Shown here piece after piece: positions 38,407-62,806 of a stretch of DNA of 64,000 nucleotides; position 1 is the stretch's first letter, and each line of letters begins with the position of its first letter. This DNA comes from Deltaproteobacteria bacterium (GTDB lineage Bacteria; Myxococcota; Kuafuiibacteriia; Kuafuiibacteriales; Kuafuiibacteriaceae), in assembly GCA_011526105.1 (NCBI GenBank), contig WYAZ01000031.1:131796-195795 (forward strand). The letters run 5' to 3'. The notes beneath the pieces are model-generated. The model did not search any database and had not been told where the DNA came from. It saw only the letters and a program-made list of their open reading frames with translations. The translations under genes and the position numbers were made by a program.

Positions 38407-41400
38407 TCACATGTTCCGGCGGTACTGCCCGCCGACTTGATACAGCGCTTCCGACATCTGCCCCAGTGAAGCGATCTTGCTCACGGAGAGCAGGCTCTCG
38501 AAGACGTTGCCGCCCGAGAGCGCGGTCTCCTTGAGCGCGGAGAGCGCCGGGCCACTGGCTGCGCGGTTTCTGGCCCAGAACGCCTCCTTCGAGCGGATGG
38601 CGTAGCGCTTTTCTTCCTCGGTGGAGCGAATGACCTCGGCCGGGATGATCGTAGGGGAGCCCTTCGCATCGAGGAAGGTGTTCACGCCCACGATCTCGAG
38701 CTCGCCCGAGTGCTTCAGCGTCTCGTAGTGAAGGGACTCGTCCTGGATCTTGGAGCGCTGGTACATGCGCTCCATCGCGCCGAGCACCCCTCCGCGCTCC
38801 GAGATGCGTCGGAACTCGGTGAGCACCGCCTGCTCCACGAGGTCGGTGAGCTCCTCGATAATGAACGCGCCCTGGACTGGGTTCTCGTTCCTCGAGAGGC
38901 CGAGCTCCTTGTTGATGATGAGCTGAATGGCCAGCGCGCGGCGCACGCTCTCTTCGGTGGGGGTGGTGATGGCCTCGTCGTAGGCGTTGGTGTGCAGCGA
39001 GTTGCAGTTGTCGAAGAGCGCGTACAAGGCCTGAAGCGTGGTGCGGATGTCGTTGAAGGCGATCTCTTGGGCATGCAAGGACCGGCCGCTGGTTTGGATG
39101 TGATACTTGAGCTTCTGGCTGCGTTCGTCGGCGCCGTACTTGTCGCGCATCGCCTTGGCCCAAATGCGCCGCGCGACCCGGCCGATGACCGAGTATTCGG
39201 GATCGAGCCCGTTCGAGAAGAAGAATGAGAGGTTGGGCGCGAACTGGTTCACGTCCATGCCGCGCGACAAGTAGTACTCCACGAAGGTGAAGCCGTTGGC
39301 CAAGGTGAAGGCGAGCTGCGTGATGGGGTTCGCGCCGGCCTCCGCGATGTGATAGCCGGAGATCGACACCGAGTAGAAGTTGCGCACGTCGCGGGCGATG
39401 AAGGACTCTTGGATGTCGCCCATCATTCGGAGCGCAAACTCGGTCGAGAAGATGCAGGTGTTCTGGGCCTGGTCTTCTTTGAGGATGTCCGCCTGAACCG
39501 TGCCGCGAACGACCTTCATCGTCTCGGCCCGAATCCGCTCGTAGACCTCCGACGGGAGCACTTGGTCTCCGCTGACCCCCAGCAAGAAGAGGCCTAGGCC
39601 GTCGTGGCCTTCCGGAAGCTCGCCCTGATACGCGGGACGCGGCTGCCCGAGCCCCTGGTAGATCTCGGCAATGCGCTTTGTAACCTCATCGGTCAGCCCT
39701 TGGGCTCGGATGTGCTTCTCGCACTGCTGATCCACCGCCGCGTTCATGAAGAACGCGAGCACCATGGGCGCGGGCCCGTTGATGGTCATGGACACACTCG
39801 TGCTGGGGTCCGCGAGGTCGAAGCCCGAGTAGAGCTTCTTCGCGTCATCCAGAGTGGCCACGCTCACGCCGGAGTTGCCGACCTTGCCGTAGATGTCGGG
39901 CCGGAGATGCGGGTCCTCGCCGTACAAGGTGACGGAGTCAAAGGCGGTCGACAGTCGCTTGGCCGGCAGGCCGCGCGAGACGTAATGGAAGCGGCGGTTG
40001 GTCCGTTCCGGCCCACCTTCGCCGGCGAACATACGTGCGGGGTCCTCGCCCTCGCGTTTCAGCGGAAATACGCCCGCGGTGTACGGGAACGAGCCCGGCA
40101 CGTTCTCTCTCAGCTGCCACCGCAACACATCACCGAACTCGCGATAACGGGGCAGCGAGACCCTCGGGACCTTCGTGCCCGAGAGCGACGTGCTGTAGAG
40201 CGCCTGCTCGATGACCCGACCCCGCACCGTGTACCGATACTGGTCGGCCCGGTAGCGCGATACGGTCTCCGGCCACGCATCGAGGAGCGCGCGGCACCTG
40301 TGATCGAGTTGCTGCTCGAGGGCGTGACGGCGACTCTCGAGTTCGGCGATGTACGCCGGCTCGGACTTGTCGCTCCGAAGGATCTCGATGGTGCCGGAGA
40401 GCTGATAGAGCTTGCGCGCGAGCGCACACTGCGACTCCACCCACGCCTCGTAGCGGTCGCTGTTCTCCGCGATCTCCGCGAGGTAGCGAGAGCGCTCCGG
40501 CGGGATGATGTAGATCTTCTCGCTGGCTTTTTCGGTCAGGGCGCCCGGACGGCCGAGCTTTGTGCCGCTGCGCTCGTCGAGGAGCTGGGTGATGCGTCGG
40601 TAGAGGTGGTTGGTGCCGGGGTCCGCGAACTGAGAGGCGATGGTGCCGTAGATGGGGAGGCCCTCGTCAATGGCGTCGAAGAGCTTGTGGTTGCGCTTGT
40701 ACTGCTTTCGGACGTCGCGCAAGGCGTCTTGCGAGCCTCGCTTGTCGAACTTGTTGATGGCGATGACGTCCGCGAAGTCGAGCATGTCGATCTTCTCGAG
40801 CTGGGTTTGGGCGCCGTACTCGGAGGTCATGACGTAGAGGGAGACGTCCGAGTGGTCGGTGATCTCGGTGTCGGACTGCCCGATGCCGCTGGTCTCGAGC
40901 ACCACGAGGTCGAAGCCCGCGGCGCGCACGATGCGCAGGGCGGCCGCGACGTGTTTGGACAGGGCGAGGTTCGCCTGCCGCGTGGCCAAGGAGCGCATGT
41001 AGACCCGTGGTGAGCTGACGGCATTCATGCGAATTCGATCGCCGAGCAAGGCGCCGCCAGTGCGACGCTTGGACGGGTCGACCGAGAGCACGGCGACGGT
41101 CTTGTCCGCGTGGTCCTCGAGGAACCGACGAACGAGCTCGTCCACGAGCGAGGACTTGCCCGAACCTCCGGTGCCGGTGATGCCGAGCACCGGCGGCCGT
41201 GCGGCGCCCTTTTCGATCTCGAGCGCCGATTCGAGCGGCGCGAGGACCTCCGGATGATTCTCCGCCAGCGTGATGAGCCTCCCGATGGCCTGGGGGTCTC
41301 GAGCGCCAAGACGCTTAAGCTCGGCGCCGAGCTGGCTCGTCTCGACGGTGGCAAAGTCTGCCTTTTGCACGAGGTCATCGATCATGCCCTGCAGGCCCAT

Positions 41401-41784
41401 CGCACGGCCGTCGTCCGGGCTGTAGATGCGGGTGATGCCGTGTTTGTGGAGGCGCTCGATCTCGGTGGGCAGGATGGTGCCGCCGCCGCCCGCGAAGATC
41501 CGGATGTTTGCGCCGCGTTCCTCGAGAAGATCGTGCATGTACTCGAGGTACTCGACGTGACCCCCTTGGTAGGAGGTGAGCGCGATGGCCTGGACGTCTT
41601 CTTGGATGGCGCAGTCGACGATCTCCTGCACGCTGCGGTTGTGGCCCAGGTGAATGACCTCCACCCCCGAGGCCTGGATGATGCGGCGCATGACGTTGAT
41701 CGCGGCGTCATGCCCGTCAAAGAGAGAAGCGGCGGTGACGATCCGAACCGGATTCTTCGGGATGTAGCGTGCGGTGTCGGTCAT
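38407..41784 (-). CDS. icmF: Fused isobutyryl-CoA mutase (B12-binding domain + MeaB-like G-protein + mutase substrate domain); start re-placed to ATG 41784 ([14 protein letters not shown]...)
   Basis: N-terminal B12-binding (…DGHDAAINV…), G3E GTPase ([12 protein letters not shown]), C-terminal methylmalonyl-CoA-mutase-like TIM barrel; ~1125 aa as for IcmF. Confidence 0.85.
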
Positions 41785-42758
41785 GGAGAGCTCTTGTGCC
41801 GCTTCATCATTTTTTCCATCTCGGCGCAATGATCGATGTCATTGGCCCGGGGCGTGAACCAGACGAGATCGAAGGGCAGGGCGGTGGCGCCGTACCTCGA
41901 TGCGTAGGCGGTGGGGTCGTTCTCGCCGTCCTCGATCTCCACGAAACCGATGCTCAGGCTGAGTGGGGCGTTCAGCCGGCGCAGGTACCACGGTACGGCG
42001 CGGTCGGAGCGCGTGTGGCCGGCGCCCGCGATCAGGATCGCTCCGTCCGCGGGGGCCGCCAGGAGTTTGTCCGCCATGAGCGCATCTCGGGCCCGCTGTA
42101 TCTCCAGCATCGGCTTCAACATGTCGTCGGGCAGGTGACCGCAGTGTCCGTCGCGCAGCTCCGCGATGAGCGCGGCCTCGAGGTCTTCGGGCAACGGCTG
42201 GCCGAGCTGGTGTCGTTCGACGAGCGCCGCCGGCAACGTCTCCGTACCGCGCGCCACGGACATCGCACGGTCACGCGGCAGCATCGAGGCGATGAGGGGG
42301 AACTCGGCCTCCATCGTCGCCGCAAAGACGGGACGATACATCGCCCAGTCTGGCCAGCCCGAACGCGCCCAGTCGAGCCGGAGGGCCAGCGCATCCGGAT
42401 CACTGGGGGCGCGCGCTCGTTGGTCCTCGACGTCTTGCTGCCGGCTCTCCTCGATCATCTCGACAACGACGTGTGGCCTTCGGCCCGCTTCGGCGAGCCA
42501 GCGCACCGCGCGTGCCTGAAGCCGGTGGTGATCCGGGTTGTCGTGGGTCTCGCCGAGCAGCACAAACCGAGCCTCGATGGCCCTCGTCCTGAGTTCTGTC
42601 TCGGTGACGAACTGACCCCGCGCGACGTCATAGATCCGTCCCACGAGCGAGTGGTCCTGGCCGAGCGGCGATTGCCAAGCGTCGGGGGCAACCACTTGGC
42701 GGGCGCTGGCGCAGTGCAGGCCGGAGAGCGCGATGACGGCGAGAACGGAGGTGCGCAC
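41781..42758 (-). CDS. ChaN/Tiki-family (haem/iron-uptake-associated) periplasmic protein; start re-placed to GTG 42758 ([19 protein letters not shown] signal)
   Basis: [12 protein letters not shown] and later GAGH motifs of ChaN family; track ATG 42869 would overlap divergent neighbour by 45 bp. Confidence 0.55.
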
Positions 42759-53201: not shown

Positions 53202-55499
53202 ATGAGATTCCCACCGGGCCTTGGCGCCCTCTTGTTCGTTTCCTCGACCCTCCTCGGGTGCGGTGGTGAATCACCCACCGTGAGCCTCGTGGCGACGCCC
53301 AGTTCCGGCGTCGCTCCCCTCACCACCAGGCTCGACGCGAGTGGCAGCCGCGAACCCGAAGGGCGTGCGCTCGTATTCCGCTTCGACCTCGACGGGGACG
53401 GCACCTTCGAGACCGATTTCTCGAGCGAGCCCACCTACGAAGGCACGATCGCCGAGTCGGGCTCCTACCGCGCGCGTGTCGAAGTCCGGGTGGCGGAGGT
53501 CGCGGACGGGGATGTGGCGGCCTCCGAGGCCGCGATCGAGGTGAAAGCCAACCAGGCGCCCGTGGCTCGGCTCAGCCTCACGCCGCTCGAGGGAAAGAGT
53601 CCGCTCCTCGTGCGCCTCGACGCGAGCGCGAGCTCCGACCCGGACGAGGGGCCGGAGACGCTCACCTTCCGCTTCGACGTCGACGGAGACGGGGATTTTG
53701 ACACGGAAGCCGCCTCCACGGCCGCGATGGAGAACACCTATCGGAGCCCGGGGCGCTTCTCGGCGATGGTCGAGGTCCGAGACCGGCAGGGGCTGGTTTC
53801 AGTGGCCAGCGTGGATGGGCCGAACGTACTCGCCTCGGCGGACATCGCGGTCGACTCCAATCGAGACGGTCAAATCGACCAGGGCGACGAACTCGATGAG
53901 GAGACCTGGTCCCGCGATCGGGGCGCGGTGTTCTTGGCGAACCTGGACGATGATGACGGCGATGGCGAGCGGGATGGCCGAGAGGAAGTCTACACCGCCG
54001 GTAGCGACGCCCTCGATCTGACCCCGGTCCTCGTGCGCCAGAACGACCAGCTCTCGGACAACGCACGGGTCACGCTGACGGTGTCGCCGGCCGAAGGGGC
54101 CGCCTCGGTGCGCATCTTCATCGAAGATCCGGACGGGAGTCATCGCGTGCTGCTCGCGCCGAACGCCGCCTCCGCGGAGATCTCGGCCGCGCTTCTGCGC
54201 CAGGCCGACGCCAAGCTCTGGCTCGAGGGTTTGAGAACCCGCGTGCTCGGATGGGATGGTCACGTGACGCTCACGCTTCGTGTGGAGGATGGGGCGGAGG
54301 TCGATGAGGACGTCGTGGCGCTGCGGGTGTCGCCCGTCATCTTCCAGGACAACATCCTCGAGCCCTATCGGCTGTACCTGATGCGCATTTCGGACAACCG
54401 CCTCGGCCAGAATCTGCCGTTTTACAACGCGGTTCGCGACAACCTGCCGGAGACCATCGAGCTGTACGACGTCGATCAGTATCGATACGAGGCCGACCGC
54501 TGGGTGCAAGACACCATGCAGACCGGCTATCAGTCGATGCCTGGGCCGAACGGCACCCACCAGATGCAGACCTATCTGGCGACCGAGCGCCTCGAGTTCG
54601 GCAGCTCGCTTCAGACCTTGATCCCGCAGGAGCTGCTGAGGCCGGACCTCGGCTACTTCTACCCTGGGCGTTCGGTGGCCAGCTCGCTCAACTACGGAGG
54701 CAACCTCGAGGTGGCGCCGCCGCACTCGGCCGACGGCGTCGACTACCCCTTCGGCCGGATCGTCGTCGGTGGGGGCCGTCAGGGCACATTGATGGGCGTG
54801 CCCTACTCGGACGGGATGGGCGAGACGCAGCGCGCTTGGCTCGACGCGCAGGAGGTTCAGGGGCCTTCGCTTCAGTACTCCACCGAGTGGCTCGCGGTCG
54901 GCCACGTCGACGAGATCTTCCTGTTCGTCCCCAACCGCGCTGCGGCCGAGGGCGAGCGCGCCTGGAAGCTCATGATCGCTTCTCCAGATCTCGCGCGTCT
55001 CGCGCTCTCCCGACTGGTGGAGCAGGGCCAAGGTGACCTACCGGTCTTCTTGGGGCGCGAGACCCAGGCCACGGTCGCGGCCATCCTCAACGACCCCGGG
55101 CTCACGGAGTTCAACCGCCGGGCTCAGATCAGGATCGACGGCATCCGGGACGGGCTGGCCCAGGCGCTGGGGCTCACGGACCAAGACATCATCGAAGTGC
55201 CGGTCATGTACGAGTACTACGACTTCGACGGCTACGATCTGGCCGCCGCCTACAACCCGGGCATCCAGAACCTCATGGTCGCGGGCTCCACCCTCTTTAT
55301 CCCCGACCCGGAGGGTCCCGAGGTCGAGGGCGTGGACGTCTGGAAGCGAATGACTCGGGAGGTCACGGAGCCGCTGGGGGTGACCTCCATCTTCGTCGAC
55401 ATCTTCGAGAGTTATCACTTGAACCTGGGCGAAGCGCACTGCGGCACCGAGTTCGATACCGCCCCGTTTCCGACGCACTGGTGGGAGGTGGCCCAATGA
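53202..55499 (+). CDS. Secreted lipoprotein: 2x PKD domain + protein-arginine deiminase (PAD) middle and catalytic domains; start re-placed to ATG 53202 (MRFPPGLGALLFVSSTLLGCGG)
   Basis: C-terminal region aligns motif-for-motif with vertebrate PAD catalytic domain: NLEVAPP, WLAVGHVDEIFLFVP, LMIASP, LGEAHCGTEFD (nucleophilic Cys), terminal WWEV. Confidence 0.75.
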   Translation: MRFPPGLGALLFVSSTLLGCGGESPTVSLVATPSSGVAPLTTRLDASGSREPEGRALVFRFDLDGDGTFETDFSSEPTYEGTIAESGSYRARVEVRVAEVADGDVAASEAAIEVKANQAPVARLSLTPLEGKSPLLVRLDASASSDPDEGPETLTFRFDVDGDGDFDTEAASTAAMENTYRSPGRFSAMVEVRDRQGLVSVASVDGPNVLASADIAVDSNRDGQIDQGDELDEETWSRDRGAVFLANLDDDDGDGERDGREEVYTAGSDALDLTPVLVRQNDQLSDNARVTLTVSPAEGAASVRIFIEDPDGSHRVLLAPNAASAEISAALLRQADAKLWLEGLRTRVLGWDGHVTLTLRVEDGAEVDEDVVALRVSPVIFQDNILEPYRLYLMRISDNRLGQNLPFYNAVRDNLPETIELYDVDQYRYEADRWVQDTMQTGYQSMPGPNGTHQMQTYLATERLEFGSSLQTLIPQELLRPDLGYFYPGRSVASSLNYGGNLEVAPPHSADGVDYPFGRIVVGGGRQGTLMGVPYSDGMGETQRAWLDAQEVQGPSLQYSTEWLAVGHVDEIFLFVPNRAAAEGERAWKLMIASPDLARLALSRLVEQGQGDLPVFLGRETQATVAAILNDPGLTEFNRRAQIRIDGIRDGLAQALGLTDQDIIEVPVMYEYYDFDGYDLAAAYNPGIQNLMVAGSTLFIPDPEGPEVEGVDVWKRMTREVTEPLGVTSIFVDIFESYHLNLGEAHCGTEFDTAPFPTHWWEVAQ

Positions 55500-56587
55500 A
55501 CCGCATGACGACTCTGCTGATGGGTGCCTCGATGCTGCTCGCCTCTGCGGCGTTCGGCGCGAAGGACCCTGACTGGGCTCAGCGCCTCGGCGCCGCCCAT
55601 GGGGCGGCCTACCTCGAGGCGCGTGAGGCGTTGCTCGAGCTCGACGTGGCCGAGCGAGCACGTCTCGCGCGCGAGGCGCTCGAGATGGGGGCCGATCGGT
55701 TCGAGGCCGCGGGGCTCCTCCTGGGCGCGCTGGCGTGGCCGGAGCTCGGGGCGTCGTGCCGGTCGCGGGTGTACGACCTCCGAGGTCTAGATGCCGAGCG
55801 CGCTCGCTTTCGGCGCCGCCAGGGCCCGGAGGCCGCGAGCCATCTGCGTTCGGCGGTTCGGAGCGGTTGTGCCGCCCTGGTCCTCGAGCTGGCGCTGCGA
55901 CCCGAGTTGTACGAGCTCGAGGTCTCTCGCTCTTTGGCGCCGGAGCAGCGCGACGCACTGGATCGCGGCCTGGTGATCGCCCTCGGAGGCGCGCAGGGTG
56001 CGCCGGTGCTCGGCTATCTAGCATCGCGCGCCGACGACCCCAGCCTCGCCCCCATGCTGCGTCGGCGAGCGCTCGAAGCGCTTGGGCGCGTGGGCGGGGC
56101 GCTCGTGACCGTTCGACTGCGCGCCGTGGCCGATGACCCCCGCGGGCTCCCTCAGCTTCGGGCGGGGGCCTTGGTTGGCCTCGGGCTCGGCGGTGACGCC
56201 GCCGCCCGGCCGAGCCTGAGCGTGGCGCTTCGCCACAAAGACCCGACGATCGCTTCGGCCGCTCTGGTGGGCCTGTCAGCGCTGGCCGCAGCTCAGAACC
56301 CGCAAGCCTCCGATGGTCTTCGGCGCCAGGTGAGCGCCGAGCTCGTGGCTCGCCTGGCGGAGGTCGATGAGGCCATGAGCCCGGCGGTGGTGGACGCGCT
56401 GGCCTACGTGGCCCATCCTTCGGCCCTCGAGGACCTTCGGCGACTTCGGGTGGAGAGCCTGGCCCCCCGCTTTGATGTCGCCGAACGGCGGCTCCTGCGG
56501 GCCGGGCAGCGTGCGGGGGGCGTCATGGCGGGTGGGCCGGAGGTGCCGGCGACCAGCCCCAAGCGCCCTGAAGCGGCGCCCCGCTGA
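55496..56587 (+). CDS. Secreted HEAT/ARM-like repeat protein (start re-placed to ATG 55496, overlapping PAD stop as ATGA)
   Basis: Signal MNRMTTLLMGASMLLASAAFGA; Ala/Leu-rich helical repeats (…DPRGLPQLRAGALVGLGLGGDAAARPSLSVALRHKDPTIASAALVGLSALAA…). Confidence 0.5.
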   Translation: MNRMTTLLMGASMLLASAAFGAKDPDWAQRLGAAHGAAYLEAREALLELDVAERARLAREALEMGADRFEAAGLLLGALAWPELGASCRSRVYDLRGLDAERARFRRRQGPEAASHLRSAVRSGCAALVLELALRPELYELEVSRSLAPEQRDALDRGLVIALGGAQGAPVLGYLASRADDPSLAPMLRRRALEALGRVGGALVTVRLRAVADDPRGLPQLRAGALVGLGLGGDAAARPSLSVALRHKDPTIASAALVGLSALAAAQNPQASDGLRRQVSAELVARLAEVDEAMSPAVVDALAYVAHPSALEDLRRLRVESLAPRFDVAERRLLRAGQRAGGVMAGGPEVPATSPKRPEAAPR

Positions 56588-56591
56588 TCGA

Positions 56592-57203
56592 TTACTCGCC
56601 GTCGTCGGTGGCGGACTCTTCCGCGGGGTCCTTGGTCTCGGCCTGGCGGGCGGCCTCCTCGGCGCGGCGTTTTGCCTCAGTCTCGGAGCGGGCTTTCAGG
56701 GCGACGAGGCCCCGTTCGAAGTCGGGCCCGATGGCCTGATCGAGATCCACGAACAGAGACATGGCCTTGCCGAGAAACCGGTGCTCGCCGGTGAGGGTCC
56801 AGGTGACGTAGACCCCATCCCCTTCCTTCTCGATGGTGAAGCCGGGGTTGCTGACGGAAGCCCAGGGCTCCTCGAACTCCAGGCGGTAGCTGACCTCTGC
56901 CGGTGGCCGGCTTTCGATGATGGTCATCTTCCCCCTGCCCACGTCGCTGTTTCCCGACCAGGCGTAGCTGGCGCCCACGCCGGACGAGGGGCCCACGAAG
57001 GTCTTCTTCATGGCTGGGTCCAGGCTGTCCCAAGGCGACCACTCTACCCACTCGCCGAGGTTGTTCACCATGCCGAAGACGACCTCGGCCGGCGCGGCAA
57101 TGGTGGTGGAACGGCTCACGGAATACGTGGACTCACGCGTCGAGATGAACGCGAGGATCGCGAGCGCGGCGACGAAAACGGCTAGAACGACTCTCTTCAG
57201 CAT
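56592..57203 (-). CDS. SRPBCC-superfamily (polyketide-cyclase/START-like) protein with N-terminal TM anchor; start re-placed to ATG 57203
   Basis: MLKRVVLAVFVAALAILAF anchor, then ~150-aa START/Bet v1-like core; acidic C-terminal tail. Confidence 0.5.
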   Translation of the reverse strand: MLKRVVLAVFVAALAILAFISTRESTYSVSRSTTIAAPAEVVFGMVNNLGEWVEWSPWDSLDPAMKKTFVGPSSGVGASYAWSGNSDVGRGKMTIIESRPPAEVSYRLEFEEPWASVSNPGFTIEKEGDGVYVTWTLTGEHRFLGKAMSLFVDLDQAIGPDFERGLVALKARSETEAKRRAEEAARQAETKDPAEESATDDGE

Positions 57204-57532
57204 GGAGGGGGCCTCCTCGCCCGGGTACCCCGCGACTCCGCAATTGGCAAACACGCCGGGCAGATTATTTCGATCCGAATGACCGGGTGTGAGATCGATC
57301 GGCTTGACTGCTTGGGCCGCCGCTTTCACGATGCCGCTTCGTAGCCCTTGCTCCTCTATGAAGAATCAGGCGCGTCAGCCCTCCTCGCTCACCTTCCCGC
57401 TCGGCACGATCGGCATTCCATCGCCTCGCTGCACTCGAGTCGATCCTCGTTGATCGACCGCTGCTGCGATCTCCCTCTCGTCCTCTCTCTCTCACACCGC
57501 GCCCCTTCATAGAACGGGCATTAGGAGCTCCG

Positions 57533-58852
57533 ATGGATCCTTCATCCATGGAATCAGTCAACCCCGAAGAACCTCCCGCGCGACGCGTCTCGAAGGCCGT
57601 TGTGCCTCCGCTCCCGTCCGGTGCGGACGATGAGCCCCCCGCGAGTCCGGCCCTCATGGCCGCCTTCGCGGAGCGGAGGACACCTTTCGAGATCTCCGCC
57701 CGCCGTATTCCGCGCATCAGCCCCGAGGCACGTCTGTACCGTCGCTTGCATCATCCGGGGGTGACCGACGCCGAGTGGAACGACTGGCACTGGCAAGCCA
57801 AGCACCGCCTGAGAAGCCTCGACCAGATCGAGCGCACCATCACGCTCACCGAAGACGAGCGCGAGGCGATCCAGAAGGGTGGTTCGATGCTGCCCATCGG
57901 CATCACGCCTTACTACATGAGCCTCATCCATCGCACGGATGCGCGGCAGGGCTTGCGGCGTACGGTCGTTCCGAGCCTGCAGGAGTTCGTTCGCATGCCG
58001 GGCGAGGCCGACGATCCGCTGGGCGAGGATGCTCACAGCCCGGTGCCGGGGATCGTCCATCGCTACCCCGACCGCATCCTGTTTCTCGCGCTGGACTACT
58101 GCTCCACTTACTGCCGCTACTGCACGCGATCACGCGTCGTCGGCGCCGGCGAGATCACAGCCAGTCCGGCGCGGCTCGAGATGGCCTTCGACTACATCCA
58201 GCGCACCCCCACGATCCGGGACGTGCTCGTCTCGGGCGGTGACCCTTTGTCGCTCAAGGACGAGAAGCTCGACTACATCCTGGGGCGGCTCAGGCAGATT
58301 CCGCACATCGAGTTCGTGCGCGTCGGCACCAAGATGCCGGCGGTGTTGCCTCAGCGCATCACGCCAGCGCTCGTGAAGATGCTGCGCAAGCACCACCCGG
58401 TGTGGATGAGCATCCACTTCACCCACCCGGACGAGTGCACGCCGGAGGCGTTTCGTGCGTGCGCGCGTCTCGCCGACGCCGGCATTCCGCTCGGCGCTCA
58501 GATCGTGCTCCTCAAGGGCGTGAACGACGACGTCGAAGTCATGAAGAGCCTGATGCATCGGCTCCTCATGATGCGAGTTCGGCCGTACTACTTGTATCAG
58601 TGCGATCCGATCTCGGGCTCCTCGCACTTCCGAACCTCGGTCGAGAAGGGCCTCGAGATCATCCGAGGTCTCCGCGGTCACACGACGGGCTACGCTTGCC
58701 CGACCTTCGTCATCGACGCCCCGGGCGGCGGTGGCAAGATCCCGCTGATGCCTGAGTACGTGGTTGGTCGCGAGGGCGACGATCTCCTGCTCCGCAACTT
58801 CGAAGGCAAGATCTACCGCTATTCGGATCCGCAGCCGGCTGGGAGTGCCTGA
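57533..58852 (+). CDS. kamA: Lysine 2,3-aminomutase family radical-SAM enzyme (KamA-like)
   Basis: 439 aa; CSTYCRYCTRS radical-SAM cluster motif in KamA context (…LALDYCSTYCRYCTR…), PLP-binding region, C-terminal KamA-specific extension. Confidence 0.8.
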   Translation: MDPSSMESVNPEEPPARRVSKAVVPPLPSGADDEPPASPALMAAFAERRTPFEISARRIPRISPEARLYRRLHHPGVTDAEWNDWHWQAKHRLRSLDQIERTITLTEDEREAIQKGGSMLPIGITPYYMSLIHRTDARQGLRRTVVPSLQEFVRMPGEADDPLGEDAHSPVPGIVHRYPDRILFLALDYCSTYCRYCTRSRVVGAGEITASPARLEMAFDYIQRTPTIRDVLVSGGDPLSLKDEKLDYILGRLRQIPHIEFVRVGTKMPAVLPQRITPALVKMLRKHHPVWMSIHFTHPDECTPEAFRACARLADAGIPLGAQIVLLKGVNDDVEVMKSLMHRLLMMRVRPYYLYQCDPISGSSHFRTSVEKGLEIIRGLRGHTTGYACPTFVIDAPGGGGKIPLMPEYVVGREGDDLLLRNFEGKIYRYSDPQPAGSA

Positions 58853-59844
58853 TGCGCGTCGGACTCACCTACGATCTGAAGGACGACTACAAGAACAGCG
58901 GTCTGTCCGAGGAGGCGCTCGCGGAGCTCGATCGTGAGGAGACGATCGTGGGCATCGAGGGCGCCGTTCAGGCGGCCGGACATGAGACGGTTCGCATCGG
59001 GTCTGCGCCCCGTCTCGTGGAACGCCTCGCGCGAGGCGAGCGCTTCGATCTCGTGTTCAACATCGCCGAGGGTCTGTCGGGGGCCGCACGTGAGAGTCAG
59101 GTCCCCGCGATCCTCGACGTCTATGGCATCCCTTACACGTTCTCGGATCCGTTGGTCCTCGCGGTGGCGCTTCACAAAGGCTTGGCGAAACACGTGGCGC
59201 GCGCGGCCGGCGTACCCACCGCCGACTTTGTGGTCGTCGAGACGCTGGCGGATCTCGAGCGTGTCGACCTCGCGTATCCCTTGTTCGTGAAGCCGGTGGC
59301 GGAAGGCACGAGCAAAGGGGTCACGCCGGCTTCGCTGGTGCGGGATCCATCGGGGCTCCGAGCGAGCACACGCGATCTGCTCGAGAAGTTCCGCCAGCCG
59401 GTGCTGGTCGAGCGCTACCTCTCGGGGCGCGAGTTCACGGTCGGGATCGTCGGCACCGGCGACCAAGCCGAGGTCCTCGGCTCGATCGAAGTGCTGCTGC
59501 TCGCGGGGGCGGAGCAAGGCATCTATTCGTATGAGAACAAGCAGCGCTGGGAGGGAAAGGTCACCTACCGCGTGGGGAACGCTCGTGAAGACGACGAGGT
59601 CCGAAGGGCTGAGTCTGTCGCGCTCGCGGCCTGGAGAGCCCTCGGGTGCAGGGACGCGGGTCGAGTGGACATTCGCTCCGATGATGCCGGCAATCCATGC
59701 TTCATCGAGGTGAACCCGCTCGCCGGGCTGAACCCAGAGATCTCGGATCTCGCGATCTTGATCAAGGAACACGGCATCCCATACGAGGCGCTGATTCGGC
59801 GCATCCTCGAGAGCGCCATCACGAGGTCCCGAGCCGCGTCATGA
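58852..59844 (+). CDS. ATP-grasp ligase, D-alanine--D-alanine ligase-like (1 of 2)
   Basis: 330 aa; Ddl-type N-domain (…EGLSGAARESQVPAILDVYGIPYTFSDPL…), ATP-grasp core (PLFVKPVAEGTSKGV, …EVNPLAGL…). Confidence 0.75.
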   Translation: MRVGLTYDLKDDYKNSGLSEEALAELDREETIVGIEGAVQAAGHETVRIGSAPRLVERLARGERFDLVFNIAEGLSGAARESQVPAILDVYGIPYTFSDPLVLAVALHKGLAKHVARAAGVPTADFVVVETLADLERVDLAYPLFVKPVAEGTSKGVTPASLVRDPSGLRASTRDLLEKFRQPVLVERYLSGREFTVGIVGTGDQAEVLGSIEVLLLAGAEQGIYSYENKQRWEGKVTYRVGNAREDDEVRRAESVALAAWRALGCRDAGRVDIRSDDAGNPCFIEVNPLAGLNPEISDLAILIKEHGIPYEALIRRILESAITRSRAAS

Positions 59845-60815
59845 AGATCCTCGTCGTTCATCAGGCGCTGGCCGATGACGCAGGACCCGATGAAGCCGAC
59901 GTCCTGGTCCAGGTCGAGGCGGTCAGCCAAGCGCTCGTGCGTCTTGGTCACGAAACCTCCGTGCTGCCCGTCTCGATGGACCTCGAGACGGGCCGGCGAG
60001 AGCTGAAGCAGCGAGCCCCAGAACTCATCTTCAACCTCGTCGAGTCGTTGGGCGGCAGCGGGCGGCTGATTCACTTCGCCCCCACGCTCTTCGACGTGCT
60101 CGGCATCCCGTATACGGGCTGCAGCAGCGCCTCGATCTACGAGACCTCGAACAAGATCCTCGCGAAGGAGCGGCTCGAGACCGCCGGCCTTCCGACGCCG
60201 GGCTGGTACGCTCCGGGGAGCGGTCGCTTCGAGCCCGGAGCGTATATCATCAAGTCGGTGGTCGAGCACGCATCCATCGGCCTCCTGGATGACGCGGTGG
60301 TGAACGTGAGTGCGCCCACCGAGTTGGACGAGCTACTCGAAGCGCGCCGAGATCGGCTCGGAGGCTTCGCCTTCGCCGAGCGGTACATCGAGGGTCGGGA
60401 GCTCAACGTCGCCGTCTTGGCGGGCCGAGTTCTTCGCCCCGACGAGATCCTCTTCGTCGACTACCCGCCCGAAAAGCCGCGCATCGTGGGTTACGAGTCG
60501 AAGTGGACACCCGGCAGCTTGGCATACGAGCGCACGGTTGCTCGCGCTGAGTTTCCCCCCGAGGACGGCACGCTGCTCGATCAGCTGAGTTCTCTGGCTC
60601 GGTCGGCATGGGATCTGTTTCGGCTCTCCGGATTCGCCCGCGTAGACTTTCGTGCGGACGAGCTCGGGCGCCCGTTCATCCTCGAGGTGAACGCCAACCC
60701 CTGTATCTCCCCCGACGCCGGGTTCGCTCGCGCGCTCAGCCGCGCCGGCATCAGCTACGACGAAGCGATTCGCACGCTCGTGGACGATGTGGCGGTGGGG
60801 GCGGCTCGAACGTGA
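59841..60815 (+). CDS. ATP-grasp ligase, D-alanine--D-alanine ligase-like (2 of 2)
   Basis: 324 aa; paralogous to previous (…VESLGGSGRLIHFAPTLFDVLGIPYTGCSSASI…, …ILEVNANPCISPDAGF…); ATGA overlap with previous gene. Confidence 0.75.
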   Translation: MKILVVHQALADDAGPDEADVLVQVEAVSQALVRLGHETSVLPVSMDLETGRRELKQRAPELIFNLVESLGGSGRLIHFAPTLFDVLGIPYTGCSSASIYETSNKILAKERLETAGLPTPGWYAPGSGRFEPGAYIIKSVVEHASIGLLDDAVVNVSAPTELDELLEARRDRLGGFAFAERYIEGRELNVAVLAGRVLRPDEILFVDYPPEKPRIVGYESKWTPGSLAYERTVARAEFPPEDGTLLDQLSSLARSAWDLFRLSGFARVDFRADELGRPFILEVNANPCISPDAGFARALSRAGISYDEAIRTLVDDVAVGAART

Positions 60816-61297
60816 ATCCGAGCTTTCGCAGTGAACCGGCGGCGAAGGATGTCGCGGCGGTGAGAGCGGTTGTGGCGTCGACCGGCTTCTTCTCGGAAGA
60901 AGAAGTGCGCATCGCGGAAGAGCTGGTCGAGGTCACGCTCGAGAAGGGCCAAGCGGAAGGGTACCATTTCGTGTTTCTCGAAATGGGTGGAAGCCTCGTG
61001 GGCTACACCGCGTTTGGACCCATCCCCGCGACGCGCTCGAGCTGGGATCTCTACTGGATCGCGGTACACGCAAGTCGCAGAGGCCAAAACCTCGGACGCG
61101 TGCTGCTCGATGAGACCGAGGCGCGCATTCGCGCTGCGGGCGGGACCAGGGTGTACGCGGACACCTCCGGTCGCGCGCAGTACGCTCCCACGCATCGATT
61201 CTATGAGGCGTGCGGATATCATCGTGCGGCCGAGCTCCCGGACTACTACGCGCCCGGGGACGCGAAGCTCACCTACTGCAAGAAGCTCGAGACCTGA
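60812..61297 (+). CDS. GNAT-family N-acetyltransferase (GTG start overlapping previous stop as GTGA)
   Basis: 161 aa; acetyl-CoA-binding motif A region (…IAVHASRRGQNLGRVLLDETEARIRAAGGTRVYADT…). Confidence 0.7.
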   Translation: MNPSFRSEPAAKDVAAVRAVVASTGFFSEEEVRIAEELVEVTLEKGQAEGYHFVFLEMGGSLVGYTAFGPIPATRSSWDLYWIAVHASRRGQNLGRVLLDETEARIRAAGGTRVYADTSGRAQYAPTHRFYEACGYHRAAELPDYYAPGDAKLTYCKKLET

Positions 61298-61357
61298 CCG
61301 ATCTCCTGATTTTCGAAGCGGGCCCACAAACGTTCACGTTCACGTTCACGAGACGAC

Positions 61358-62227
61358 CTAGCGCTCGACCGGGTACGTGTAGTTGGCGCCGTGATCGGAG
61401 TCCCAGGCGGGCCCACCGAACACCGAGCCGCCGTAGGAGGACCCGCGGAACCAGAGCCGCACCGAGTGTGCGTCCTCGGGGACCTTCACCGCCGCCTCGT
61501 AGGGCACGACGTCCAAGTGTTGGCCCATCTCGCCCCGCTGAATCGCGAGCAGCGGCAGCTCGGATGGCGCTTTGCCATCGAAGGAGATGAACGCCTGAAC
61601 GGACCAGGTCGGCGCGCCGTGATGGAAGGTGCCTCGCAGGAACTGCTTGAGCCGATCCACATCGTAGGCGATCCGCATCGTCTCTCCGGCTCGGATGGGA
61701 CCGCTGACGGCTTCGCCCCAGAGATCGTCGAATCGCAGCGTCGCGCCGCCGCGGGGCGCGATGGGCACGCGGGAGTTGGCGCCGAAGTCGCTGTCGTAGA
61801 GGCGTCGGCCATCCTTGGTCTCGATCTCGAACCAGTATTCGACCTCGCCGGACGCGGAGTTCGGCACGGTGAGCTTCGCCGGGATGCGCTGGAGCTGAGC
61901 GGTGTGCAGATCGTGGGTGCCGTCGGCGATGAGCTTGGTCTTCACCGCGCCACCATCCACTCGGTAGTGCGCCCGGATCTTCGAGATCTCGCCGGTGGTG
62001 CCGAGGTCGGAGAGCCCTCTGTGATAACGCAAGTAGAAGGGCTTGCCGGCCTCCGCGATCGCCGGGAAGGGGCCGCCGGTGGTGGTCTCTGGCTGCAGCG
62101 AGACCTCGGTCCAGCGGAACGGGCCGCCGAAGTTCACCGCATGGCTCTCCGCCGGAACGGGCCGAGGTTCGATGCCGACCGAGAAGGGCTGGGGTGCGAC
62201 GGGCCGGGACGAACCGATGGAAGGCAT
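61358..62227 (-). CDS. Hypothetical protein (cytoplasmic, beta-rich)
   Basis: 289 aa ORF with good codon bias; no family recognised. Confidence 0.45.
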   Translation of the reverse strand: MPSIGSSRPVAPQPFSVGIEPRPVPAESHAVNFGGPFRWTEVSLQPETTTGGPFPAIAEAGKPFYLRYHRGLSDLGTTGEISKIRAHYRVDGGAVKTKLIADGTHDLHTAQLQRIPAKLTVPNSASGEVEYWFEIETKDGRRLYDSDFGANSRVPIAPRGGATLRFDDLWGEAVSGPIRAGETMRIAYDVDRLKQFLRGTFHHGAPTWSVQAFISFDGKAPSELPLLAIQRGEMGQHLDVVPYEAAVKVPEDAHSVRLWFRGSSYGGSVFGGPAWDSDHGANYTYPVER

Positions 62228-62320: not shown

Positions 62321-62806
62321 ATGATTATCGCACCCAACGCCGTCGTGGCTTTCGACTACACCCTCACCAACTCGGAAGGGGAGCTCTTGGATGAGAGCGA
62401 TGAGGGCCCCATGGTCTACCTCCATGGCCACGGCAACATCGTGCCGGGCCTCGAGCGCGCGCTCCTCGGGAAGTCCGCGGGCGATGCGTTCAAGGTCGAG
62501 ATCGCCCCCGAGGATGGCTACGGCGAGATCAGCGGCCGGGGCACCATCCGCGTAGGCCGCGACGAGGTCCCTCCGGATCTGCCCATCGAGGAGGGCGTCG
62601 GCTTCGCCGCCATGACCCCGGACGGCGAGCAGGTCACGCTGTGGGTCGTCGACTTCGACGACAAGGGCATCGAGATGAGCATGGACCATCCCCTGGCCGG
62701 CGTTGCGCTGCACTTCGATCTGAAAGTGCGGGAAGTGCGGGCCGCCACCGACGAAGAGATCGAACACGGACACGTCCACGATGGCCCTGACCACCATCAC
62801 CACTGA
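62321..62806 (+). CDS. slyD: FKBP-type peptidyl-prolyl cis-trans isomerase SlyD with His-rich C-terminal metal-binding tail
   Basis: 161 aa; FKBP + IF (insert-in-flap) domain pattern, tail HGHVHDGPDHHHH. Confidence 0.8.
   Translation: MIIAPNAVVAFDYTLTNSEGELLDESDEGPMVYLHGHGNIVPGLERALLGKSAGDAFKVEIAPEDGYGEISGRGTIRVGRDEVPPDLPIEEGVGFAAMTPDGEQVTLWVVDFDDKGIEMSMDHPLAGVALHFDLKVREVRAATDEEIEHGHVHDGPDHHHH

What the first reader, a model, noticed from the sequence alone, without database searches (positions are those of the whole stretch)
57533..61297. KamA (lysine 2,3-aminomutase) + two Ddl-like ATP-grasp ligases + GNAT in one translationally coupled operon: candidate pathway for an uncharacterised N-acylated beta-amino-acid peptide
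Gene order is kamA, ATP-grasp, ATP-grasp, GNAT. The junctions 58852, 59841 (ATGA) and 60812 (GTGA) overlap or abut, so the four genes are almost certainly one transcript.

Established knowledge: KamA makes beta-lysine, and in the ablA/ablB system a GNAT acetylates it to N-epsilon-acetyl-beta-lysine. KamA-family members also include glutamate 2,3-aminomutase. Ddl-like ATP-grasp enzymes form amide or dipeptide bonds.

Inserting two such ligases between the aminomutase and the acetyltransferase is not the known abl arrangement and is not EpmA/EpmB. It predicts a small beta-amino-acid-containing di- or tripeptide that is then N-acetylated. That product could be a compatible solute, a signalling molecule or a precursor of a larger natural product.

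A 330-bp upstream leader (57204-57532) with a pyrimidine tract and a good Shine-Dalgarno-like AGGAG may carry regulation.
Basis: partly seen in the sequence, partly recalled or inferred. Interest (0 to 1): 0.78.

Follow-up and report, generated by a model that had tools for sequence, protein, structure and literature searches.

The report
Conserved beta-lysine peptide-making operon
Four overlapping genes (a lysine 2,3-aminomutase, two D-Ala-D-Ala-ligase-like ATP-grasp enzymes and an acetyltransferase) form a gene set that recurs in hundreds of bacterial species from many phyla, most likely makes an acetylated small peptide built on beta-lysine, and was not described in any paper I could search.

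Summary
Four + strand genes (KamA 57533-58852, ATP-grasp AG1 58852-59844, ATP-grasp AG2 59841-60815, GNAT 60812-61297) overlap by 1, 4 and 4 nt, and the flanking genes lie on the opposite strand.

KamA keeps every catalytic and lysine-binding residue of Clostridium lysine 2,3-aminomutase. Both ligases keep the ATP, Mg and catalytic residues of DdlB. Their substrate-pocket residues differ, and both score far below the curated Ddl cut-offs.

The set is conserved well beyond chance. At least 591 species genomes carry AG1. Among 55 loci with enough flank, KamA is present in 51, AG2 in 53, GNAT in 45 and all four in 41. No other neighbour is conserved. Every adjacent pair is found fused somewhere: KamA-AG1, AG1-AG2 and AG2-GNAT.

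Two optional parts are absent here: a CxxCxxCC protein and a GNAT + acetylpolyamine-amidohydrolase-like deacetylase.

The GNAT orthologue from Oleidesulfovibrio alaskensis G20 has an orphan crystal structure (PDB 2R7H) and sits in the same operon.

Best reading: one pathway, lysine -> beta-lysine -> two ATP-dependent amide bonds -> N-acetylation, giving an intracellular small molecule, possibly a compatible solute. The product is inferred, not shown. No leader riboswitch was found, and ten literature searches found no description.

The parts
57204..57532 (+). Intergenic region and leader between the divergent SRPBCC gene and kamA. It holds an AGGAG Shine-Dalgarno motif at 57524-57528 and a pyrimidine-rich tract.
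   Evidence: Sequence read. There is no Rfam match at E<=1 and no sigma-54 or sigma-70 consensus on the + strand. The RNA fold z-score is -2.5. Several short blocks (for example CTTGACTG and TTCCCGCTCGG..CGATCGG) are conserved with the roughly 80%-identical relatives L086 and L087. A regulatory role is not shown.
57533..58852 (+). KamA-family radical-SAM/PLP lysine 2,3-aminomutase (439 aa). It has a ~70-aa low-complexity N-terminal extension and lacks the C-terminal Zn/oligomerisation region.
   Evidence: Pfam Radical_SAM + LAM_C. NCBIfam AblA model TIGR03820 scores 492.3 bits against a cut-off of 525.4. PDB 2A5H matches at E 7.5e-141 over residues 75-433. C190/C194/C197, R199, Y352, D358, D395 and K402 correspond to LAM C125/C129/C132, R134, Y287, D293, D330 and K337, and all are invariant in 69 of 69 aligned family sequences (window included). 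Zn ligand Cys268 is Asp/Asn/Ser, and the Cys375/377/380 tail is absent.
58852..59844 (+). AG1: a Ddl-fold ATP-grasp carboxylate-amine ligase (330 aa). It is the most conserved member of the set and its signature enzyme.
   Evidence: Pfam Dala_Dala_lig_C at 1.4e-29. The best NCBIfam Ddl model scores 152 bits against a cut-off of 243. AlphaFold pLDDT is 90.4, and the best PDB folds are Ddl at TM 0.75-0.80 and 24-29% identity. DdlB K97, K144, E180, E187, K215, R255, D257, E270, N272 and S281 are kept. Invariant changes are H63->E73, E68->R80, S150->T153 and L282->D299, and Y216 is mostly E (Q231 in the window). Identity across phyla is 55-65%.
59841..60815 (+). AG2: a second Ddl-fold ATP-grasp ligase (324 aa), 29% identical to AG1.
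   Evidence: Pfam Dala_Dala_lig_C at 1.7e-15. The best NCBIfam Ddl model scores 91 bits against a cut-off of 243. AlphaFold pLDDT is 93.8, and the best folds are Ddl. The ATP, Mg and catalytic residues are kept. Substrate positions change: H63->E68, S150->A144, Y216->W222, G276->C288, S281->A293 and L282->G294. The AG1-AG2 comparison is. AG2 is fused to the GNAT in 9 of 68 loci and in 19 of the best 120 homologues. It is fused to AG1 in P0374 and many others.
60812..61297 (+). Single-domain GNAT N-acetyltransferase (161 aa, GTG start), orthologous to the orphan structure PDB 2R7H.
   Evidence: Pfam Acetyltransf_1 at 3.2e-12. There is no AblB-family hit, and the best NCBIfam match is RimI at 36.7 bits against a cut-off of 86.4. 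PDB 2R7H, 'putative D-alanine N-acetyltransferase of GNAT family', matches at E 1.8e-39 over residues 4-156. The acetyl-CoA motif RRGQNLG is read directly in the translation. The O. alaskensis G20 orthologue ABB39838.1 lies in the same four-gene operon in contig L089.

Best explanation
The four genes encode one self-contained biosynthetic pathway for an intracellular small molecule built on beta-lysine.

Step 1 (strongly inferred): KamA converts free L-lysine to beta-lysine (3,6-diaminohexanoate) by radical-SAM/PLP chemistry.

Step 2 (inferred): AG1 acts first. It is always next to KamA, is sometimes fused to it, and is the only partner in minimal loci. It uses ATP to make an acyl-phosphate and forms a first amide bond that involves beta-lysine. 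Its pocket keeps the Ddl residues that hold an alpha-ammonium (mostly Glu at the Glu15 position) and a carboxylate (Ser281 equivalent). It gains invariant acidic residues (E73, D299), which suits a substrate with two positive charges.

Step 3 (inferred): AG2 makes a second ATP-dependent amide bond on the AG1 product, giving a tripeptide-like or branched amide.

Step 4 (inferred): the GNAT uses acetyl-CoA to acetylate a remaining free amine, most likely the epsilon- or beta-amino group of the beta-lysine unit, and so neutralises its charge.

In many other genomes a second GNAT fused to an acetylpolyamine-amidohydrolase-like deacetylase can remove such an acetyl group, either for turnover or as protect/deprotect chemistry. 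That part is absent here, so in this organism the end product would stay acetylated.

The most likely physiological role is a compatible solute or stress metabolite, by analogy with N-epsilon-acetyl-beta-lysine and with N-acetylglutaminylglutamine amide. The role and the exact structure are not established.
For: Operon structure: 1-, 4- and 4-nt overlaps, with opposite-strand flanking genes.

KamA: E 7.5e-141 to lysine 2,3-aminomutase 2A5H, with all cofactor- and lysine-binding residues invariant in 69 of 69 aligned sequences, window included. The AblA model is the best NCBIfam hit.

Ligases: both keep the catalytic set of DdlB but have changed substrate residues. Both have a confident Ddl fold. 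Both score below the Ddl cut-offs.

Conservation: at least 591 species genomes carry AG1. In 55 loci with enough flank, KamA is present in 51, AG2 in 53, GNAT in 45 and all four in 41, always on one strand. The exhaustive search found 886 representatives (50%-identity clusters) of AG1 relatives at E<=1e-30.

No other gene family is conserved nearby, meaning no transporter, carrier protein, target protein or resistance gene. That fits an intracellular small molecule rather than a secreted natural product or a protein modification.

Rosetta-stone fusions:
- KamA-AG1 (P0386)
- CxxCxxCC-AG1 (P0380)
- AG1-AG2 (P0374 and about 35 of the best 150 representatives)
- AG2-GNAT
- deacetylase-GNAT (16 loci)

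Minimal KamA+AG1 loci are L020, L031, L039 and L056.

The optional deacetylase is closest to small-molecule acetylpolyamine amidohydrolases (6PHR at 2.7e-72, 3Q9B at 2.7e-59). These enzymes hydrolyse N-acetyl-aminoalkyl groups like that of N-epsilon-acetyl-(beta-)lysine.

From established knowledge: AblA/AblB make N-epsilon-acetyl-beta-lysine as a salt-induced osmolyte (Pfluger et al. 2003, cited in PMC3543383). Ngg (GNAT + ATP-grasp) makes the dipeptide osmolyte NAGGN (my own knowledge).
Against: No product has been observed, and the co-substrates of AG1 and AG2 are unknown.

The KamA score is just below the curated AblA cut-off. The Zn site and the C-terminal domain of canonical LAM are missing, so activity and stereochemistry are unverified.

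The GNAT is not an AblB homologue and resembles RimI, a protein N-terminal acetyltransferase, most closely, though only weakly.

The habitats of carriers include peat, groundwater and lake water as well as marine sediments, so a purely osmotic role is not indicated.

GNAT is missing near AG1 in 10 of 55 loci, and KamA is not adjacent in 4.

The residue-based substrate reasoning rests on an alignment to a DdlB sequence that I recalled from memory. I checked it only by its length and by the identities of 18 numbered residues.
Confidence: 0.6

Rival explanations
1. The module modifies a macromolecule. One or both ATP-grasp ligases attach beta-lysine to a protein (as EpmA does on EF-P, or RimK on S6) or to a peptidoglycan precursor (as the ATP-grasp D-aspartate ligase does). 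The GNAT and deacetylase then act as a reversible acetyl switch on the added amine.
For: The GNAT's best curated match is the protein acetyltransferase RimI, although it is weak (36.7 bits against a cut-off of 86.4). HDAC-family enzymes include protein deacetylases. AG2 lacks the Ser281 equivalent that holds a free carboxylate of the acceptor in Ddl, and its Glu15 position is poorly conserved. ATP-grasp enzymes that modify proteins or cell-wall precursors exist (my own knowledge).
Against: No candidate target or carrier gene (efp, a ribosomal protein, a mur gene or a small acidic carrier) is conserved next to the module in 85 loci. KamA is LAM/AblA-like, not EpmB-like (226.6 bits against 369.3). 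The deacetylase is closest to small-molecule polyamine deacetylases, by a margin of more than 10 orders of magnitude in E-value over HDAC6. AG1 keeps the Ddl residues for free amino-acid substrates.
Confidence: 0.13
2. The ligases build a beta-lysine homo-oligomer, a polycationic storage or antimicrobial compound like the beta-lysine chain of streptothricins. AG1 would make the first beta-lysyl-beta-lysine bond and AG2 would extend it. The GNAT would provide capping or self-protection, as streptothricin acetyltransferases do.
For: KamA is the only precursor-supplying enzyme in the module. Minimal KamA+AG1 loci exist. AG1 has an unusually acidic pocket (E73, D299, and mostly E at the Tyr216 position). 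Streptothricin acetyltransferases are GNATs that acetylate the beta-amino group of beta-lysine (my own knowledge).
Against: There is no exporter or other resistance gene. The GNAT gives no hit to a streptothricin-acetyltransferase model. AG1 keeps an invariant Arg (R80) and the Ser281 equivalent, which suggests a partner with a differently placed carboxylate. Two differently specialised ligases are not needed for a homopolymer.
Confidence: 0.1
3. The genes are merely neighbours. KamA would start lysine fermentation or degradation, the two ATP-grasp genes would be cell-wall ddl paralogues, and the GNAT would be an unrelated housekeeping acetyltransferase.
For: Automatic annotations call AG1 and AG2 'D-alanine--D-alanine ligase' and the GNAT 'RimI-like'. 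KamA is the first enzyme of lysine fermentation in clostridia (PMC8674449).
Against: Synteny holds across at least ten phylum-level groups, and every adjacent pair is found fused. Ddl model scores are far below the cut-offs and substrate residues differ. None of the other lysine-fermentation genes (5,6-aminomutase, 3,5-diaminohexanoate dehydrogenase and the rest) is a conserved neighbour.
Confidence: 0.03

Closest known systems
ablA/ablB pathway for N-epsilon-acetyl-beta-lysine (methanogens, some bacteria)
   Same: A lysine 2,3-aminomutase of the LAM/AblA type is followed in the same operon by an acetyl-CoA-dependent GNAT. The AblA model is the best curated hit for KamA (492 bits). The lysine-binding Asp residues are conserved.
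   Different: Two ATP-grasp ligase genes lie between the aminomutase and the GNAT. The GNAT is a 161-aa single domain with no AblB-family match. KamA is below the AblA cut-off and lacks the Zn/C-terminal region. Optional CxxCxxCC and deacetylase parts occur in other genomes.
NAGGN pathway (Ngg bifunctional GNAT + ATP-grasp, with AsnO) for N-acetylglutaminylglutamine amide
   Same: The logic matches: an ATP-grasp dipeptide ligase is coupled, and often fused, to a GNAT, giving an N-acetylated small peptide that stays in the cell. There is no exporter or carrier.
   Different: The precursor here is beta-lysine from a radical-SAM enzyme, not glutamine. There are two Ddl-type ligases and no amidotransferase. 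The domain order in the fusions is ligase-GNAT. Homology to Ngg was not tested; the comparison rests on my own knowledge.
D-alanine--D-alanine ligase (Ddl) and Ddl-like ligases
   Same: AG1 and AG2 have the Ddl fold (TM 0.75-0.80), the Dala_Dala_lig_C domain and the full ATP, Mg and catalytic residue set.
   Different: Scores of 152 and 91 bits fall below the cut-off of 243. H63, Y216 and L282 (plus E68 in AG1; S150, G276 and S281 in AG2) are replaced by other residues that are invariant in each family (the Tyr216 position of AG1 is only mostly Glu). There is no mur/dcw gene context.
EpmB/EpmA beta-lysylation of EF-P
   Same: A KamA-family aminomutase supplies beta-lysine to an ATP-dependent ligation step.
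   Different: KamA fails the EpmB model (226.6 bits against 369.3). The ligases are ATP-grasp enzymes, not LysRS paralogues. No efp or epmA gene is associated.
Bacillus subtilis kamA (yodO)-yodP-yodQ operon
   Same: A lysine 2,3-aminomutase sits with a GNAT that acetylates beta-lysine and with a deacetylase in one operon, so acetylation and deacetylation of a beta-lysine-derived intermediate are coupled (my own knowledge).
   Different: That operon has no ATP-grasp ligases. Its deacetylase belongs to the ArgE/DapE type, not the HDAC/APAH type, and the operon also carries an aminotransferase and CoA-transferase genes that are absent here.
PDB 2R7H, 'putative D-alanine N-acetyltransferase of GNAT family' (O. 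alaskensis G20, ABB39838.1)
   Same: It is the orthologue of the window GNAT (E 1.8e-39 over the full length). A 99%-identical protein sits in the same KamA-AG1-AG2-GNAT operon.
   Different: It is a structural-genomics entry without a tested function. Its name seems to derive only from the neighbouring 'ddl' annotations, and that is my inference.

Membership tests
Lysine 2,3-aminomutase (KamA/AblA) | Radical-SAM CxxxCxxC cluster motif (LAM C125/C129/C132) | tested here: met
   C190, C194 and C197 are invariant in 69 of 69 aligned family sequences, window included.
Lysine 2,3-aminomutase (KamA/AblA) | PLP-binding lysine (K337) and PLP-contacting Y287, R112, Y113 and R116 | tested here: met
   K402, Y352, R177, Y178 and R181 are all invariant.
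Lysine 2,3-aminomutase (KamA/AblA) | Substrate specificity: Asp293 and Asp330 bind the lysine epsilon-ammonium (Lys/Asn in glutamate 2,3-aminomutase), and Arg134 binds the carboxylate | tested here: met
   D358, D395 and R199 are invariant in 69 of 69. The residue roles come from my knowledge of Lepore et al. 2005 and Ruzicka & Frey 2007.
Lysine 2,3-aminomutase (KamA/AblA) | Score at or above the curated equivalog cut-off (TIGR03820, 525.4 bits) | tested here: not met
   The score is 492.3 bits. It passes only the generic KamA-family model TIGR00238 (346.6 bits against 199.2).
Lysine 2,3-aminomutase (KamA/AblA) | Structural Zn site (C268 plus C375/C377/C380) and C-terminal domain | tested here: not met
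   Position 268 is D/N/S. The tail after the LAM-368 equivalent has a median length of 7 aa, and only 1 of 69 tails has 3 or more Cys. LAM_C matches only profile positions 1-58 of 127.
Lysine 2,3-aminomutase (KamA/AblA) | Conversion of L-lysine to beta-lysine | not testable with these tools
   This needs an anaerobic enzyme assay.
abl (ablA-ablB) N-epsilon-acetyl-beta-lysine system | AblB-type beta-lysine acetyltransferase | tested here: not met
   No AblB-family model appears among the NCBIfam hits at E<=0.01. The best hit is RimI at 36.7 bits, below its cut-off.
abl (ablA-ablB) N-epsilon-acetyl-beta-lysine system | Two-gene aminomutase + acetyltransferase unit | tested here: not met
   Two ATP-grasp genes intervene here and in most related loci.
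abl (ablA-ablB) N-epsilon-acetyl-beta-lysine system | Induction by salt | not testable with these tools
   No expression data are available.
EpmA/EpmB EF-P beta-lysylation | EpmB-type aminomutase together with a LysRS-like EpmA | tested here: not met
   The EpmB model scores 226.6 bits against a cut-off of 369.3. No EpmA-like or efp gene is among the conserved neighbours.
D-alanine--D-alanine ligase (Ddl) | ATP-grasp Ddl fold with the ATP, Mg and catalytic residues K97, K144, E180, E187, K215, R255, D257, E270 and N272 | tested here: met
   All are conserved in AG1 (86 of 86) and AG2 (75 of 75). The best folds are Ddl.
D-alanine--D-alanine ligase (Ddl) | Curated family score cut-off | tested here: not met
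   AG1 scores 152.2 bits and AG2 90.8 bits against 243 for NF002378. The same holds for every other Ddl/Van model.
D-alanine--D-alanine ligase (Ddl) | D-Ala-binding residues (H63, S150, Y216, S281, L282 in DdlB) | tested here: not met
   AG1 has E, T, E/Q, S and D at these positions. AG2 has E, A, W, A and G.
D-alanine--D-alanine ligase (Ddl) | D-Ala-D-Ala synthesis or complementation of a ddl mutant | not testable with these tools
   This needs an experiment.
GNAT acetyltransferases | GNAT domain above the Pfam cut-off, with the acetyl-CoA motif Q/R-x-x-G-x-G/A | tested here: met
   Acetyltransf_1 scores 47.2 bits against 20.7. The motif RRGQNLG is read in the translation. Orthologue structure 2R7H matches at 1.8e-39.
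NAGGN-type (Ngg) N-acetyl-dipeptide osmolyte synthesis | Homology to Ngg/AsnO and presence of an amidotransferase | not tested
   No Ngg sequence was available to compare. No amidotransferase is among the conserved neighbours. The resemblance is one of logic only.
Known anti-phage defence systems | Match to any PADLOC model | tested here: not met
   There were no hits for the four proteins or for the deacetylase fusion.

The most novel reading that the evidence does not exclude
The module may not make a free metabolite. It could be a new ATP-grasp-based beta-lysylation system that adds one or two residues, including beta-lysine, to a protein or another macromolecule. The GNAT and the optional APAH-like deacetylase would then form a reversible acetyl switch on the added amine. 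That would be a post-translational modification pathway distinct from EpmA/EpmB and present in hundreds of sediment and soil species.
Probability: 0.1. Interest if true: 0.85.

Novelty: new variant of a known kind. Interest (0 to 1): 0.66.

Why it matters
If the reading is right, hundreds of species of Desulfobacterota, Planctomycetota, Myxococcota, Acidobacteriota and other phyla, which are major players in sediments and soils, make a beta-lysine-based acetylated peptide that nobody has described.

Confirming it would give four things:
- a new metabolite class, possibly a compatible solute or stress metabolite;
- two new substrate specificities in the much-studied Ddl family, which automatic annotation currently mislabels as cell-wall D-Ala-D-Ala ligases in thousands of genomes;
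- a function for the orphan crystal structure 2R7H;
- a Zn-free, C-terminally short clade of lysine 2,3-aminomutase.

The question is directly testable, because the same operon is present in the genetically tractable Oleidesulfovibrio alaskensis G20.

Tried and rejected
- **Riboswitch or known RNA in the leader.** Rfam at E<=1 over 56900-61700 gave only a chance miRNA-like hit inside the GNAT gene. Fifteen related loci had no hit at gathering thresholds.
- **Sigma-54 or sigma-70 promoter in the window leader.** None was found on the + strand. Sigma-54 sites are enriched upstream of the operon in other lineages.
- **Bona fide ddl.** Rejected on scores and residues.
- **Glutamate or arginine 2,3-aminomutase.** These models score lower and far below their cut-offs (422.7 against 650, and 383.2 against 600). 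The lysine-binding Asp residues are present.
- **EpmB/EF-P.** Rejected.
- **Lysine fermentation.** No other pathway gene is conserved nearby.
- **Larger natural-product cluster, RiPP or carrier protein.** No further conserved neighbour exists. The 500-800-nt gap between KamA and AG1 in some loci holds a CxxCxxCC protein, not a peptide precursor.
- **Anti-phage defence.** No PADLOC hit.
- **The optional parts elsewhere in the window.** tblastn found neither the deacetylase nor the CxxCxxCC protein in the 64 kb.
- **A closer solved structure for AG1 or AG2.** Both the sequence and the fold searches returned only Ddl/Van enzymes.
- **Literature.** All ten full-text searches combining aminomutase, beta-lysine or KamA with ATP-grasp, Ddl, GNAT, deacetylase, Planctomycetes or Desulfovibrio found no paper on this gene set. 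Three candidate papers that I read concern ablAB, the sigma-54 regulon of Bacilli, or lysine fermentation.
- **Taxon of the window.** I could not determine it. The closest labelled relatives are 'Deltaproteobacteria'/Myxococcales MAGs.

Full report
**1. What is in the sequence**

The region 57533-61297 holds four + strand ORFs:
- KamA 57533-58852 (439 aa)
- AG1 58852-59844 (330 aa)
- AG2 59841-60815 (324 aa)
- GNAT 60812-61297 (161 aa, GTG start)

The junctions read TGATG, ATGA and GTGA, which are overlaps of 1, 4 and 4 nt. AGGAG lies 5 nt before the KamA ATG. Independent assemblies of the same organism were gene-called into the same four products with the same overlaps.

The gene upstream (SRPBCC/Polyketide_cyc2) and the gene downstream (DUF6209) are on the opposite strand. 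The transcription unit is therefore bounded and contains nothing else. Terminator-like sites inside it occur at the chance rate. GC content (65%) matches the rest of the window.

**2. The four proteins**

*KamA.* It has Radical_SAM + LAM_C domains. It aligns without gaps to Clostridium subterminale lysine 2,3-aminomutase (PDB 2A5H, E 7.5e-141). Its best curated model is AblA-type lysine 2,3-aminomutase, at 492.3 bits against a cut-off of 525.4. The glutamate, arginine and EpmB models score lower and fall far below their cut-offs.

I mapped the known LAM residues; their roles come from my knowledge of Lepore et al. 2005 and Ruzicka & Frey 2007. The cluster cysteines C125/C129/C132, the carboxylate-binding R134, the PLP lysine K337, Y287, and the two aspartates D293 and D330 that hold the lysine epsilon-ammonium are all present. 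All are invariant in 69 of 69 aligned sequences from this gene set, the window protein included. The family lacks the Zn ligand C268 and the C-terminal Cys triad and domain, and it carries a non-conserved N-terminal extension. This is a lysine-specific aminomutase clade with an unusual quaternary-structure region.

*AG1 and AG2.* Both have the Dala_Dala_lig_C domain, confident AlphaFold models (pLDDT 90.4 and 93.8) and Ddl as their best structural match (TM 0.75-0.80, 18-29% identity). They are 29% identical to each other.

I aligned them to E. coli DdlB. I recalled that sequence from memory and checked it by its length of 306 aa and by the identities of 18 numbered residues. Both families keep K97, K144, E180, E187, K215, R255, D257, E270 and N272, so both should be active ATP-dependent carboxylate-amine ligases.

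The substrate positions differ, and the replacements are invariant within each family unless noted:
- AG1: H63->E, E68->R, S150->T, L282->D. Y216 is mostly E (Q in the window). S281 is kept, and the E15 position is mostly E.
- AG2: H63->E, S150->A, Y216->W, G276->C, L282->G. S281 is mostly A. The E15 position is poorly conserved.

Their best Ddl-model scores, 152 and 91 bits, are far below the cut-off of 243. They are not cell-wall Ddl enzymes.

*GNAT.* It is a single-domain acetyltransferase with the acetyl-CoA motif RRGQNLG. It has no AblB-family match. It has a clear orthologue with a solved but functionally orphan structure, PDB 2R7H (E 1.8e-39).

**3. Conservation elsewhere**

AG1 has thousands of close homologues, 60% identical or more across phyla. 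The 80 loci kept are labelled as follows:

| Label | Loci |
|---|---|
| Desulfobacterota / 'Deltaproteobacteria' | 35 |
| Planctomycetota | 23 |
| Krumholzibacteria | 3 |
| Thermoanaerobaculia | 2 |
| Alphaproteobacteria | 2 |
| Lentisphaerae, Kiritimatiellia, Spirochaetaceae, Bacteroidetes, Polyangiaceae | 1 each |
| 'Pseudomonadota/Proteobacteria' | 4 |
| Patescibacteria (possibly misbinned) | 1 |
| Unlabelled | 5 |

A tblastn search with the four window proteins showed the same order, KamA-AG1-AG2-GNAT on one strand, in most loci. Among the 55 loci with at least 3 kb upstream and 5.5 kb downstream, KamA is present in 51, AG2 in 53, GNAT in 45 and all four in 41.

All-against-all clustering of flanking ORFs found no further conserved neighbour; the next family occurs in 9 loci. 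There is no transporter, carrier protein, target protein, regulator or resistance gene. The exhaustive HMMER search found 886 representatives (50%-identity clusters) at E<=1e-30.

Close relatives of the window (about 80% identity, L086 and L087) share the operon and its flanks: PAD, HEAT and SRPBCC genes upstream and FKBP downstream.

**4. Fusions and optional parts**

Every adjacent pair is fused in some organism:
- KamA-AG1: P0386, with Radical_SAM + LAM_C + Dala_Dala_lig_C, 57% identical to the window KamA.
- AG1-AG2: P0374, whose C-terminal half is 41% identical to the window AG2. About 35 of the best 150 representatives are proteins of 560-790 aa with two matched stretches.
- AG2-GNAT: 9 of 68 loci and 19 of the best 120 AG2 homologues.

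Two optional parts appear in other genomes but not in this window:
- A CxxCxxCC (PF03692-like) protein of about 170 aa lies between KamA and AG1 in 24 of 85 loci. It is fused to AG1 in P0380.
- A protein of about 580 aa combines an N-terminal GNAT with a Hist_deacetyl domain. It is present in 20 of the 55 full loci and is contiguous with the C-terminal GNAT in 16 loci; the Desulfosarcina variabilis version is 751 aa. Its closest solved relatives are acetylpolyamine amidohydrolases (2.7e-72 to 8.6e-59), ahead of HDAC6 (1.2e-56) and well ahead of the other histone or protein deacetylases (1e-36 and weaker).

Minimal loci with only KamA+AG1 exist: L020, L031, L039 and L056. One locus has the order KamA-GNAT-AG1-AG2 (L037).

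**5. A tractable host**

The 2R7H protein belongs to the cluster of ABB39838.1 / WP_011368809.1 from Oleidesulfovibrio (Desulfovibrio) alaskensis G20. A 99%-identical copy lies in a KamA-AG1-AG2-GNAT operon, preceded by an NtrC-type (REC-AAA-HTH_8) sigma-54 activator. D. mangrovi has the same layout plus the GNAT-deacetylase gene.

Sigma-54-type promoter matches occur upstream of KamA in 14 of 77 loci, against 2.2% of random segments (p about 1e-9). The window leader has none.

**6. Interpretation**

*Shown by tools.* The operon is real. The enzymes have the family memberships and residue patterns above. The set is co-conserved and is fused pairwise.

*Strongly inferred.* KamA makes beta-lysine. 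The four proteins act in one pathway.

*Inferred.* AG1 acts directly on beta-lysine. It is the constant partner of KamA, is sometimes fused to it, and has an acid-enriched pocket. AG2 then forms a second amide bond, and the GNAT acetylates a remaining amine. The optional APAH-like enzyme removes such an acetyl group.

The absence of any exporter, carrier or target gene, the variable flanks, and the small-molecule-type deacetylase all point to an intracellular small molecule.

By analogy with N-epsilon-acetyl-beta-lysine (ablAB; PMC3543383 cites Pfluger et al. 2003) and with NAGGN (my own knowledge), a compatible-solute or stress-metabolite role is the most likely one. The habitats of carriers are not only saline, and I put that specific role at about 0.3.

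The rivals are modification of a macromolecule (0.13), a beta-lysine oligomer (0.10) and unrelated neighbours (0.03).

**7. The leader**

The 330-nt intergenic region has no Rfam match and no consensus promoter on the + strand. Its RNA fold z-score is modest, at -2.5. A few short blocks are conserved with relatives that are about 80% identical. I found nothing that indicates a riboswitch, and 15 related loci were also negative.

**8. Novelty**

No curated NCBIfam model exists for AG1, AG2 or this GNAT. There is no PADLOC hit. Public annotations are generic or misleading, such as 'D-alanine--D-alanine ligase' and 'RimI-like'. Ten full-text searches found no paper on this gene set.

The library lacks most subscription journals. 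I leave roughly a 10-15% chance that the pathway has been described elsewhere.

The enzymes belong to known families and the logic resembles the abl and NAGGN pathways. I therefore rate it a new variant of a known kind: a widespread, uncharacterised pathway with an unknown product.

Noticed in passing
L089 4370 (-95 from kamA), L090 (-71) and 12 further loci; not in the window: Sigma-54-type promoter matches (TGGCACG-N4-TTGCW, at least 10 of 12) lie upstream of the KamA homologue in 14 of 77 loci, against 2.2% of random 450-nt segments (p about 1e-9). In the two Desulfovibrio-type loci an NtrC-type enhancer-binding protein gene sits directly upstream.
   Followed up: partly
window 53205-55499 (+): A bacterial protein-arginine deiminase homologue (PF03068, E 2.5e-80) has two N-terminal PKD domains and a signal-like N-terminus. 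Together with the HEAT-repeat gene (55481-56587), it is conserved upstream of the operon in relatives L086 and L087.
   Followed up: no
window 61358-62227 (-): A DUF6209 gene sits between the GNAT and the SlyD-like FKBP gene. It is absent at that position in the ~80%-identical relatives L086 and L087, so it looks like a lineage-specific insertion.
   Followed up: partly
window 61330-61350: A perfect tandem hexamer (ACGTTC x 3.5) lies in the short convergent intergenic region between the GNAT and the DUF6209 gene.
   Followed up: no
window 62321-62806 (+): A SlyD-like FKBP peptidyl-prolyl isomerase has a His-rich C-terminal tail (…HGHVHDGPDHHHH). It lies immediately downstream of the operon, and it is also there in L086 and L087.
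   Followed up: no
window 38407-41829 (-): A 1140-aa fusion combines a B12-binding domain, a MeaB-type GTPase and a methylmalonyl-CoA-mutase-type domain (an IcmF-like architecture). It sits next to a ChaN-like haem-binding protein, an Nramp transporter and a TonB-dependent receptor.
   Followed up: no
L020, L031, L039, L056 (related loci): These loci hold only KamA + AG1, with no AG2 or GNAT within 5 kb downstream. In L056 a multi-pass membrane protein follows instead. This suggests that KamA-AG1 is the minimal functional core.
   Followed up: partly
P0480 (980 aa): One AG1 relative is fused to a long leucine-rich-repeat region (LRR_4 and the plant-type model LRR_At5g56370). It may be a eukaryote-like protein or a chimeric gene model.
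   Followed up: no
window 57533-57740: The ~70-aa N-terminal extension of KamA is Pro/Ala-rich and is not conserved in sequence among homologues, although most homologues have an extension of similar length.
   Followed up: no
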